Source: Tubulanus polymorphus | Lineage: Eukaryota > Animalia > Nemertea | Assembly (NCBI RefSeq): GCF_964204645.1 | Contig: NC_134026.1 | Span: forward strand, 26,384,150 to 26,448,149 | Reading direction: 5' to 3' | DNA length: 64,000 bases | Shown: piece by piece, positions 40,978 to 44,717 of the stretch | Layout: each line of letters starts with the position of its first letter | How positions within the stretch are numbered: position 1 is the stretch's first letter | Notes under the pieces: model-generated | What the model was told of the DNA's origin: nothing | Databases searched by the model: none | What the model saw: the letters and a program-made list of their open reading frames with translations, nothing else | Translations under genes and position numbers: made by a program

Positions 40978-43900
40978 TTACTCATCTTCTTTACCGCGCT
41001 TGATGACTGTTACGAAACTATTGTAATCGAAATGTCCACCATCGATCGGTGCTTCTTTCCACGTTTGTTTAATCTATAAATAAGAACAGGTTATTTTTGA
41101 ACCCGCGATAGATACTTTCTGATTCTCCAATGCGAAGAACCACCTGGCTTAATAACTGATCAATTACTCACTTCCTCTTTCGTGAAGTTATCACCCATAG
41201 TAGTCAAAAGTTCTTTGATACTGTAAAACAAAACAAAACGTTATGTCCCAGAATATTCATATTTCTGTATACATAGGTGGAGAATATGAAAGCCTCATCA
41301 GAATAAATGATTACTTACTATTCTTCTTCCAAATATCCTTTTTGTTCTTCGTCAAACATTCTGAATGCATTTCTCATCGTTTCCTCAGAATCCGTTCCTG
41401 AAAGAGTCATCCGAATTGAAGTTGACAGAAAAAGTAAATTGATGAGCTATCCTATCCAGCGACTGAAAATGCATCAATTATACATACCGTGCAGTTTTTC
41501 ACCGAACAGTGTGAGGAAAGCAGTGAAGTTGAGTTTGTCTGGAGCTTCCTTCAGCATAGCCTTCAGTTCATCATCCTTCGGTTCACGACCTATTTGATAA
41601 ACGATAAATTAAAAACTTTTTCTCACTACGATTTCCATATCAGATTTTGAAAACTTAATCATTATAGTCGGTATGACTTACCCAGGGAGGCATACATATC
41701 TTTGAGATCTTCAATATCGATAAATCCATCTCTATTTTGATCAATCATTGTAAATGCCTAAAACCGAACAAGTTCGAATACTCATATACACATTATTTTA
41801 TTTGTATGATCTTCACCGTTGTATTTCTTTCGGATTTATGATATAATCTAATATGATATGATATGTATCATTAATTATTTTTAGTATCTCATCTATAAGC
41901 GATTGCGCCTAGGACTGAAGAGAGATATGATATTAAGCTCTAATGTTAGAACGATATATTCTATCATATCATTGGACATTCATAAAAATATCACTGTATA
42001 TATTTCCTGAAAATCGAATCTTTATCTGAACATATTAAAACAAGTTGTAAACAGAAAACCATGAGAGCAAGATGAGGCGTTTCTTTTCCTATCGAAGCTG
42101 GGTTTTGAATATATGATGCTATGGATTGATCAGCCAAAATATGATTAACTTCATATGTGAATTGAAATGAAGATATGAGGACACGACACACGATACGAAT
42201 AATGACATATATTTTATAGAAATATATAAGTTTACGCAACATACAGTGTATTGAAAATTCGAATCATAACCTCAAAATTGTAAAACTCAAGCTGACGCAT
42301 GAAGCTTTTCATTTCCAAACTAATTGGGCTTGAATAACAGAAATTGTAAGGTTTTGATTTGAACTCATTAAAAAGTTTCGGATAAATGAGCAGGTATTTT
42401 GAATACGTAATATTCTAAGATTTAACCCTGAAGTTTCGATTACCCATACTTGAAGCTGATATGGCAAAATAGGACAGTTCCGGCCAGGGCCCACTTTTGG
42501 CAAAATTATTTTGTATAAATGAAAAAATAATTTATCCGGATAATGTTAACAGAAACAATAGAAATAAACATTGAAAACACAAGAATATAAGCGGAAGCAA
42601 ATAAAAGAAATGTCAATTGATAATTGATACAGGATCATTATTTTCATCATCAAATATCTACTATAAAGAGTGTTTTCTATTTATGTTTAATCTTTATGGT
42701 AAGTAAATCGCAATTGTTTGCTTACGACTCAGTATATCGTACTTAGTTACAGTATAATCATGTCTAAACAAGAGCAGCATTGCAGCTTTGCCATATTCTC
42801 CTAACTAGCGTTTCATAATATGATGTTAACAAAAAGATATTGTTTCGTTCCTGCCATTGGAGCACAAGAGTTGTGGTACTATATCTGTATTGTAATAGAT
42901 AATGATGTTTACATAATATGTGTATATGCATAATCCACAAACGAAAGAAATTCGTAAGATGAAATCATAAGAAAGAATGACAAAAATCTTTTCACTGATA
43001 GAAATAAGGTAAAGGTAGGAATAATTGAACCGGTCAGATCGGAATTTTTTACATGGACTTCTAGGATTAGAACCAAACCAAACATAAAACAAACAGGATT
43101 GGAGAAGATTAGGGAACTTTTCAAATCTCATATTCAATTTTCTATATATATAATTCTGGAAATGAATAAGTGCAAGGACAAAAAGAAAAGGTGCATTGGT
43201 AAAAATCGGAATATATTTGGCACTGAATGGAATTGTGTCTAGGAAGGACTCTTGCCATAAAAGCAGGGGTAAAGCAATCTATTCCGAATATTGCCGTTTT
43301 TTAGTTAATATCCAGCAGTTTAACGCTGCGTGAACTACTATGCTTAAAAATGGCTGAATTTTCATTCTCCTCTTTGTAACCAATATGGTCAGAGCTGCTC
43401 ATCCACCCACCCCCATTATTTTCAACGATAACGATTCGATTGAGGCCTTGCTCGACGCGGAAGCCACATCCTACGTATAAGAATACAGGTCCACAACATG
43501 CATTAATAGAGGGCCATCCCCTAGGGCACACCATGCTCTACCGAACCTCTTTCAACTCCTGGATCTGATGTGGAGGAAACATGGCCGTGACATTGCGACT
43601 CTTTCTCTGAAAAACAAGGAACATTCTACGTCTAGATTCATGCATTTACATAGATGTTACCATCTATACCTCTTTGAATTCTTGAATCTGATGCTGGGGG
43701 AACAGGGCAAAAACGTTAGAAGTGGCCCTATGGGCTCTTTTTTCGCCTCCACCTTCCTTCGCTTTTTTGGCGGCCTGAAATTACAAACGAGTCAAGCGTG
43801 GTGACGGTTAAGGCGAAGCATCCCCTATGGGGCACACACTGAGTAGTCTACTGCTCACACACCTATAAAGGTCACACACCTAGAGGTCACACACTAGAGG

Positions 43901-44717
43901 CCAGCGGGACTACCTATGACACTAATTTCACCTCTTTAAGTTCTTGCATTTGATTTGGGGTAAATTTGCTATAAACATTTGAAGTACTGCGTTGAGTTCT
44001 CGCTTTCTTCTCTCCACCCTCTTTGGCTTTTTTAGCTGCCTGTAAATTCACATTACAAACATTACGGGAACTGTTCAAGTGAGACCATCTTACAAAGCCC
44101 GCCATAAATTCGAACTTACTATATCCAGTTTTGATTATTTCAGAGGTAATACCCTCTTATATTGCTCGAAGCATATCGATTAGTACGAGATCAGTATGGT
44201 AGTGAATATTTCAGAATGATTCACCGAAACTTACCTCTAAAATGTGGGGTAACGGAAATCATGCCAAATTGGTATTGTTAAAATAATGAGGGCATTTAAT
44301 TCGTTGTAAAGTTCTTGTACGTTGGTGCAAAGCTTTCTTGGCGTGGGGTTTGGAGTTCACACCCTGGGTTTGAAGCGTAACTATAGAGGAAGGGAGGCAA
44401 TCATTTGATTTGCTAAGTTCAGTCTATTCAGTTTATTCAATTGTATTATCCGGTATATTGATTTGAAATGCATTCGGTTCTATAACCAAAACCAAAAAGT
44501 CCTGAACAAAGCAATATATACACGATGTACAATATATATGTAGGATACATCTTACTCACTGAAACTTTAAGACATGATAAAAACATAAAGACGATGGTTC
44601 TACATTGAATTTTCTATTCAGTAACATCCGTTGAAATTGATATCCATTAAAAGACTTAATCATAATCCACGGAGTCCATGGAAAAGACGCGTTTGTAATA
44701 CATACCTCTTCTGCCAT
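40978..44717 (-). CDS. Myosin II regulatory light chain with alternative N-terminal exons
   Basis: MAEE exon 44706-44717; alternative exons [29 protein letters not shown] (EF-hand); [71 protein letters not shown]. Confidence 0.95.
43547..43606 (-). CDS. RLC alternative exon C ([20 protein letters not shown])
   Basis: 60 nt, phase 0/0, ttttcAG acceptor and GTTCGG donor, homologous to exons A and B. Confidence 0.75.
43670..43774 (-). CDS. RLC alternative exon B ([35 protein letters not shown])
   Basis: 105 nt, phase 0/0, tttcAG acceptor and GTATAG donor; canonical RATSNVF site; not in the ORF track. Confidence 0.88.
43932..44039 (-). CDS. RLC alternative exon A ([36 protein letters not shown])
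   Basis: 108 nt, phase 0/0, ttacAG acceptor and GTGAAA donor; lies within ORF 43914-44105. Confidence 0.88.

What the first reader, a model, noticed from the sequence alone, without database searches (positions are those of the whole stretch)
43547..44039. Three tandem, apparently mutually exclusive exons swap the regulatory N-terminus of one myosin RLC gene
Seen: between the MAEE exon and the EF-hand exon are three homologous phase-0/0 exons, each with its own AG/GT and each ending Q.QE.KE. A (36 aa) has [11 protein letters not shown] (35 aa) has [10 protein letters not shown], and C (20 aa) has RKSRNVT with no basic extension. Known: RATSNVF is the MLCK/ROCK Thr18/Ser19 site, and scallop RLC isoforms for striated versus smooth/catch muscle differ at this N-terminus. 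Inference: one gene makes a canonical phospho-switch RLC (B), a variant-site RLC (A) and a short RLC with Arg at the Ser19 position (C), selecting muscle regulation mode by splicing. Exons B and C are invisible in the ORF track.
Basis: partly seen in the sequence, partly recalled or inferred. Interest (0 to 1): 0.85.

Follow-up and report, generated by a model that had tools for sequence, protein, structure and literature searches.

The report
Three swappable myosin light-chain N-termini
A ribbon-worm muscle myosin regulatory light chain gene carries three alternative versions of the exon for its regulatory tail, likely used one at a time to tune different muscle types; databases already hold all three proteins, and snails have a similar set in the same order.

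Summary
The three exons are real: A 44039-43932, B 43774-43670, C 43606-43547, each AG/GT and phase 0/0. Spliced singly, they give proteins identical to RefSeq isoforms X1, X2 and X3 of a nemertean muscle RLC, so they are already annotated. One RNA-like run shows exon C joined to the EF-hand exon. Use of A and B rests on RefSeq and codon-level conservation, and strict mutual exclusion is inferred.

The same swap occurs in gastropods, octopus and a bryozoan. Eight of 8 concatenated mollusc gene models fit the order A-B-C. Two scallop PDB chains show it too.

The 'regulation mode' reading is overstated. A keeps Thr18/Ser19 and as many MLCK basic residues as B. C lacks Ser19 but keeps Ser18 and Thr22. 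The genome has mollusc-type Ca2+-binding ELC genes, so all three isoforms are probably switched on by Ca2+, with phosphorylation as a modulator.

Verdict: new member of a known kind. The possibly unreported part is the cassette's shared order across phyla.

The parts
47714..47776 (-). Non-coding 5' exon E0 (5' end as far as the contig reaches; true start not known)
   Evidence: X4 contig record 8 covers 47714-47776; GT donor at 47713
44706..44724 (-). 19-nt exon E1 with ATG, encodes MAEE
   Evidence: AG/GT; bin depth 901.3 x 151 / 19 = 7163, the depth of record 8
43932..44039 (-). Alternative exon A, 36 aa, intact T18/S19 site, K24/M30/L33 as in mollusc 'A-type' exons
   Evidence: Gives RefSeq X1 (P0054) exactly; signature
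43670..43774 (-). Alternative exon B, 35 aa, canonical RATSNVF site
   Evidence: Gives RefSeq X2 (P0002) exactly; PDB hit E 1.4e-7
43607..43669 (-). 63-nt B-C intron; holds one TGCATG (43644-43639); candidate steric block to B-C joining
   Evidence: Length; motif; shorter than the 16 introns in the better alignments, 75 nt and up; role inferred
43547..43606 (-). Alternative exon C, 20 aa, no basic extension, Arg at position 19
   Evidence: Gives RefSeq X3 (P0053) exactly; C-to-EF1 joint in X4 contigs, depth 7317
41682..41757 (-). Constitutive exon, EF-hand 1
   Evidence: Exact match to P0002; joints in X4
41488..41589 (-). Constitutive exon
41319..41397 (-). Constitutive exon
41172..41220 (-). 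Constitutive exon with the MGDNF glycine (scallop G117 equivalent)
   Evidence: numbering read from the alignment
40978..41073 (-). Last coding exon with the VIK lysine (scallop K149 equivalent) and stop

Best explanation
This is the muscle-type myosin regulatory light chain gene of a nemertean, with three tandem homologous versions of exon 2 that are likely spliced in one at a time, giving three light chains with one EF-hand body and different N-terminal tails that likely tune different muscle types. Shown: the exons, their frames, identity with three RefSeq isoforms, and splicing of C to the EF-hand exon. Inferred: contraction is probably switched on by Ca2+ binding to a mollusc-type essential light chain whichever exon is used. 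A and B add an MLCK/twitchin/ROCK-type Thr18/Ser19 site and a basic tail that would let phosphorylation modulate the folded-head off state. C removes the tail and Ser19 and would give a mainly Ca2+-only myosin, as in scallop and squid fast muscle. B-C joining is probably blocked by the 63-nt intron, and the choice is probably steered by weak donors and by Rbfox-type and GU-rich intron motifs.
For: Exact match of the three singly spliced products to X1, X2 and X3. X4 contigs join C to EF1 (depth 7317) and all four downstream introns at GT-AG, while the DNA-like run X1 is unjoined. A 109-nt contig accounts for 63 nt E0 + 19 nt E1 + about 27 nt C, by arithmetic from bin depths. A versus B, first 9 codons: 9 of 9 residues the same with 5 synonymous changes; B versus C: 8 of 13 shared residues use different codons. 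Both point to protein-level selection. Same body with different N-terminal core in 17 of 172 body groups, 11 of them named non-self groups. Two scallop PDB chains share the aligned body and differ at the N-terminus. Two tandem ELC genes carry the FDFWDGRDG loop, best hits squid and scallop ELC at E 3e-24 and 5e-20. Separate non-muscle-type RLC genes exist. All three alternative donors match the consensus at 5 of 9 positions; the six constitutive donors match at 6-7.
Against: No joint with A or B was seen directly; their use rests on RefSeq models, whose evidence I could not see and which may derive from the same study as runs X1-X4 (one study). All inclusion combinations (none, AB, BC, AC, ABC) are in frame, so nothing at frame level forces exclusion. 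Nine of 17 examined homologue models do contain two or three such exons; I read them as gene-predictor concatenations but cannot prove it. No tissue, kinase or ATPase data exist here. A 2025 review says the role of the phosphorylatable catch isoform is unknown (PMC12040844, passage). The intron-size sample is small, and one poor alignment gave a 51-nt intron. RNA-structure tests for the exclusion mechanism were negative or weak.
Confidence: 0.72

Rival explanations
1. One reading: splicing selects the regulation mode itself. B (and A) myosins need RLC phosphorylation to switch on, as in vertebrate smooth or schistosome muscle, while C myosin is switched by Ca2+ alone.
For: B has the canonical RATSNVF and C lacks Ser19 and the basic tail. 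Schistosoma body-wall muscle is described as probably regulated solely by RLC phosphorylation (PMC5958069, passage). A scallop hybrid with a smooth-muscle RLC can be activated by Ca2+ or by phosphorylation (PMC4914028, passage).
Against: Mollusc-type ELC genes are present and the shared body keeps the G117 and K149 equivalents. Gastropod C-type exons keep Thr/Ser19. Recalled, not read: hybrid myosins with the three Placopecten RLC isoforms had ATPase set by the heavy chain, not the RLC (Perreault-Micale et al. 1996).
Confidence: 0.15
2. Only C is used in practice; A and B are rare or decaying copies that annotation software kept.
For: The only alternative-exon joint seen in the one RNA-like run is C to EF1.
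Against: A and B have intact splice sites and a synonymous excess. B is the most conserved type across phyla. RefSeq has separate X1 and X2.
Confidence: 0.05
3. The exons are independent cassettes that can be co-included, giving longer N-terminal extensions like the long tails of annelid, flatworm and tarantula RLCs.
For: All combinations are in frame; 9 of 17 examined homologue models hold two or three copies.
Against: The three RefSeq isoforms here each hold one exon. The inferred E0-E1-C contig skips A and B. The B-C intron is only 63 nt. The multi-copy models seen carry genome-project accessions or generic names.
Confidence: 0.08

Closest known systems
RefSeq isoforms XP_074643400.1 / 401.1 / 402.1 (X1-X3), labelled Tubulanus polymorphus myosin regulatory light chain
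   Same: Identical, residue for residue, to the A, B and C products.
   Different: Automatic models with no stated mechanism or tissue; I could not see their RNA support.
Scallop muscle RLC isoforms (PDB chains 3pn7_B and 2os8_B; Placopecten origin, the SmoA/SmoB names and the single-gene 5' splicing result of Perreault-Micale et al. 1996 are recalled)
   Same: One body with different N-termini ending at ...QEMKE; one with RATSNVF, one without. Catch muscle has a specific phosphorylatable isoform (PMC12040844, passage).
   Different: Both scallop chains have K/R24 and M33, so both resemble the A type. Nemerteans are not known to have catch muscle (review calls it bivalve-only). The site-less form here is C-type with Arg19.
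Gastropod and octopus RLC isoform sets (Biomphalaria, Physella, Babylonia, Bradybaena, Pomacea, Littorina, Gigantopelta, Octopus)
   Same: MAEE-type micro-exon, two or three alternative segments ending QExKE, identical body; order A-B-C in Biomphalaria model P0064.
   Different: Gastropod C keeps R16 and Thr/Ser19. Gastropod A and B have unlike extensions, whereas here A and B begin with the same 9 residues. In octopus the site-less short form is the A type.
Mutually exclusive exon clusters of protostome muscle myosin heavy chain genes (PMC3912159, passages)
   Same: Tandem duplicated exons give muscle-type isoforms from one gene, including scallop catch versus striated.
   Different: Heavy chain, not light chain; the term 'light chain' does not occur in that paper's main text.
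Vertebrate smooth/non-muscle RLC (MYL9, MYL12B) Thr18/Ser19 switch
   Same: B and A align to the site without gaps at R16-V21.
   Different: Vertebrates use separate genes for RLC types. This gene belongs to the spiralian muscle RLC group, and the genome's non-muscle-type RLCs are other genes.

Membership tests
Myosin II regulatory light chain, spiralian muscle type | Four EF-hand body with canonical EF1 loop and closest relatives among spiralian muscle RLCs | tested here: met
   [12 protein letters not shown] loop; top hits are nemertean, mollusc, flatworm, brachiopod and annelid RLCs
Myosin II regulatory light chain, spiralian muscle type | Distinct from the non-muscle (sqh-type) RLC | tested here: met
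   Four other RLC loci in G000 are closer to the Holothuria sqh protein than to this gene
Mutually exclusive exon cluster | Tandem, homologous exons with the same phase and own splice sites | tested here: met
Mutually exclusive exon cluster | Each exon seen spliced singly to both flanking exons | tested here: inconclusive
   C-to-EF1 joint shown, E1-to-C inferred by arithmetic; A and B only through RefSeq X1 and X2
Mutually exclusive exon cluster | No co-inclusion and no skipping of all exons | not testable with these tools
   Only assembled contigs of one RNA-like run were available; all combinations are in frame
Mutually exclusive exon cluster | An enforcing mechanism (steric, RNA pairing or NMD) | tested here: inconclusive
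   NMD by frameshift excluded; 63-nt intron suggestive; region fold z 0.88; B-donor hairpin 102 of 300 shuffles; palindrome pairing 88 and 128 of 2000 shuffles
MLCK-type phosphorylatable RLC | Ser19 with Thr18 and Arg16, plus basic residues at 11-13 (PMC5958069, passage) | tested here: met
   For A (K11, R13, R16, T18, S19) and B (K12, R13, R16, T18, S19), sequence only
MLCK-type phosphorylatable RLC | Same motif in isoform C | tested here: not met
   R16 K17 S18 R19, no basic residues at 11-13; same in unnamed relatives P0001 and P0055 with K16
MLCK-type phosphorylatable RLC | Phosphorylation shown biochemically | not testable with these tools
   needs a kinase assay or phosphoproteomics
Mollusc-type Ca2+-regulated myosin | ELC EF-hand I Ca2+ loop; RLC G117 and K149 (PMC4914028, passage) | tested here: met
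   Two ELC genes with FDFWDGRDG; MGDNF and VIK in this RLC; sequence only
Scallop-type striated/catch RLC isoform switch | Isoforms differ by muscle type | not testable with these tools
   No tissue-resolved RNA was available

The most novel reading that the evidence does not exclude
The A-B-C exon cassette is one ancient module, older than the nemertean-mollusc split, with exon-for-exon orthology and kept order. The scallop striated/catch RLC switch would then be one remnant of a lophotrochozoan-wide three-way muscle-type code. In that code different lineages independently removed the Ser19 site from different exons (C in nemerteans, A in cephalopods and scallop), and exon choice would mark muscle cell types across these phyla.
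Probability: 0.4. Interest if true: 0.55.

Novelty: new member of a known kind. Interest (0 to 1): 0.33.

Why it matters
The locus itself is annotated, and N-terminal RLC isoforms are known from scallop. Its value is comparative. It extends the swap to a nemertean and, with the database survey, suggests a cassette shared with gastropods in the same order. The role of the phosphorylatable molluscan RLC isoform is still called unknown in a 2025 review (PMC12040844). Three natural tails on one identical body give a clean test of what the tail adds to a Ca2+-regulated myosin. Exon-specific probes could also serve as muscle-type markers in lophotrochozoan single-cell and in situ work.

Tried and rejected
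RNA. No holder was on record as RNA. X4 behaves as spliced RNA; X2 and X3 showed no joints. Exons A and B had no cover in X4. Contigs drop rare variants, so this is no evidence of absence.

Homologue search with exon A plus flanks: 0 of 13 candidates passed.

Extra exon copies or other duplicated exons in 39500-52000: none.

RNA structure as the exclusion mechanism. Whole cassette z 0.88. A hairpin over the B donor is not unusual (102 of 300 shuffles). The palindromic CCC(A)TAGGG elements after A, in B and after C pair with 88 and 128 of 2000 shuffles doing as well, and they were picked by eye, so they are a lead only.

Raw BLOSUM assignment of the exons to mollusc classes did not put A with A (57.3 versus 59.7 for B) or C with C (47.2 versus 52.4 for B). 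The tree of 28 bodies left the backbone open.

The RPB2 search for an intron-size sample returned fragments only.

No relative genomes were offered, so intron conservation was not testable.

Papers not held: PMC2997636, PMC3017161 and the DOI recalled for Perreault-Micale 1996. Earlier scan findings: none on this gene.

Full report
1. Observation. The gene lies on the minus strand, once in the 268-Mb genome G000. After a non-coding exon (donor at 47713) and a 19-nt exon encoding MAEE (44724-44706) come A (44039-43932, 36 aa), B (43774-43670, 35 aa) and C (43606-43547, 20 aa). All have AG/GT ends and phase 0/0. Five constitutive exons follow, ending at 40978. The introns are E1-A 666, A-B 157, B-C 63 and C-EF1 1789 nt. 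No fourth copy was found with 19 query proteins over 39500-52000.

2. Identity. A search with the second EF-hand exon gave as its best named hit a RefSeq protein labelled Tubulanus polymorphus, a nemertean. Cluster look-up gave isoforms X1 (173 aa), X2 (172 aa) and X3 (157 aa). The window's exons, spliced with A, B or C alone, translate to exactly these three. So the isoforms are already annotated, automatically. The genome holds four further RLC loci of non-muscle type, so this is the muscle-type gene.

3. Expression. Four runs of one study hold the locus and none is on record as RNA. X1 gives long unspliced contigs. X4 joins all four downstream introns at GT-AG (depth about 9900-10500) and joins C to the EF-hand exon (7317), with intron pieces under depth 9; I take it as RNA. 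A 109-nt contig of depth 7163 lies with 63 nt on E0. Bin arithmetic places 19 nt on E1 and about 27 nt on C, so an E0-E1-C path that skips A and B is inferred, though not listed as a joint. Use of A and B rests on RefSeq and on selection. Their first 9 codons encode the same 9 residues with 5 synonymous differences, and third positions are the least conserved in 5 of 5 pairwise comparisons. All combinations of the exons are in frame, so exclusivity, if real, is actively enforced.

4. Relatives. Of 217 fetched single-cassette RLCs in 172 body groups, 17 groups have the same body (at most 1 difference) with two or more distinct N-terminal cores. They are this gene, 11 named groups (Pomacea, Octopus, Gigantopelta, Littorina, Biomphalaria, Physella, Babylonia, two Bradybaena genes, the bryozoan Watersipora, the brachiopod Lingula) and 5 unnamed groups. 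The Lingula pair differs from the first residue, so it looks like an alternative first exon. Biomphalaria and Physella show three types. No flatworm or annelid group showed the swap in this sample, and the 3 Lineus isoforms retrieved are all B-type. The sample is the best 120 of 2126 hits plus cluster members of 24 proteins, so absence is weak evidence.

5. Exon order and orthology. Nine of 17 examined models hold two or three segments. Biomphalaria P0064 reads MAEE-A-B-C. All 8 mollusc ones fit A before B before C; they come from 4 genera, and the class labels are mine. Exon A shares K24 and M30 with 7 of 7 distinct mollusc A-type cores; M30 occurs in 0 of 13 B- and C-type cores and K24 in 1 of 13. 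Among the 33 cores with both residues, all named ones except this gene are molluscan. Against one-to-one orthology, raw similarity puts A and C nearer class B. A and B here share a 9-residue start, unlike gastropod A and B, and the body tree is unresolved. Two unnamed close relatives (P0001, P0055) carry a C exon identical but for K at 16.

6. Mechanism. By alignment to human MYL12B, B has K12, R13, R16, T18, S19 and A has K11, R13, R16, T18, S19. Each has 3 of the 4 basic residues named for MLCK recognition (PMC5958069, passage). A differs from B mainly at 22-33. C reads R16 K17 S18 R19 N V T22 A M F. It has no Ser19 and no basic tail, but Ser18 and an R-x-x-T remain, so loss of all phosphorylation is not shown. 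Gastropod C-type cores keep Thr or Ser at 19 in 6 of 6. In molluscs Ca2+ binds ELC EF-hand I, helped by RLC G117, and K149 is needed for regulation (PMC4914028, passage). A pattern from a recalled ELC motif found two tandem ELC genes with that loop, whose best PDB hits are squid and scallop ELC. The RLC body has both residues (numbering). I infer Ca2+ activation for all isoforms, with the tail as modulator.

7. Exon choice. The three alternative donors are the weakest of the gene's nine (5 of 9 consensus matches against 6-7). TGCATG occurs twice in the 2.9 kb between E1 and EF1, on both sides of C, against a window rate of 0.36 per kb; this is placement only, not enrichment. The 63-nt B-C intron is shorter than 4 RNA-supported introns (90-98 nt) and 12 predicted ones in the better alignments (75-700 nt). 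Two poorer alignments gave 7 more, one of 51 nt. RNA-structure tests were negative or weak.

8. What is known. PDB chains 3pn7_B and 2os8_B share the aligned body and differ at the N-terminus, one with RATSNVF. A 2025 review states that catch muscle has a specific phosphorylatable RLC isoform of unknown role (PMC12040844, passage). I recall, and could not read, that Perreault-Micale et al. 1996 traced three Placopecten isoforms to one gene spliced at its 5' end and found ATPase set by the heavy chain. I saw passages only of PMC5963113, PMC12040844, PMC4914028, PMC5167519, PMC5958069 and PMC3912159, and no supplements; the MRLC tree in the supplement of PMC5167519 could bear on orthology. Eight full-text searches listed no paper on this cassette in nemerteans or across phyla. 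The library lacks most subscription journals.

9. Verdict. The feature is real and correctly read, is already in RefSeq, and works like the scallop RLC isoform switch: a new member of a known kind. The claim that splicing selects the regulation mode is only partly supported. The shared A-B-C order with gastropods is the part worth a comparative study. Interest 0.33.

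Noticed in passing
G000:C9:14331400-14340300 (L022, L023, L024-L025): Two tandem mollusc-type myosin essential light chain genes 8.2 kb apart, both with the FDFWDGRDG Ca2+ loop, 84% identical over the 49-residue exon.
   Followed up: partly
G000:C7:19.528-19.545 Mb (L002, L003): Two copies 14 kb apart of a non-muscle-type RLC with RYTSNVF, identical in the aligned protein parts but with different first-intron length; recent duplication or assembly haplotype.
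   Followed up: no
G000:C2:3.337 Mb (L005): A non-muscle-type RLC paralogue reading RAQHTNSNVF, with His at 16 and Asn at 18, so a changed phosphorylation site.
   Followed up: no
window 43515-43531, 43819-43835 and about 43725-43735: A G+C-rich near-palindrome CCC(A)TAGGG occurs after C, after A and inside B, with GTGTG repeats after A. Pairing of the first two could loop out B and C, but the shuffle support is weak.
   Followed up: partly
P0098/P0161 (Lineus), P0083/P0163 (Lingula): These RLC genes have further alternative segments in the EF-hand body (Lineus body 89-103; Lingula body 28-58) that this gene lacks.
   Followed up: no
P0024, P0169: Animal muscle RLCs filed under Clostridium perfringens and Enterococcus faecium in public databases, on contigs of about 0.6-1.2 kb; probably contamination.
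   Followed up: no
P0004, P0006, P0008 and others (unnamed): Many annelid-like RLCs have a long tail with KKKIGNVF, lacking Ser19, beside others with RAQRATSNVF; no same-body pair was found, so they may be paralogues.
   Followed up: partly
window about 33600-38900, minus strand: Exons of a highly conserved protein that I recognise from memory as RNA polymerase II subunit RPB2 lie just downstream. A small gene begins near 40120 on the minus strand, close to the RLC 3' end.
   Followed up: no
G000:C9, L025 about 14340800-14346000: A 2.3-kb tandem duplication at 97% identity and a 240-nt inverted repeat lie near the ELC genes.
   Followed up: no
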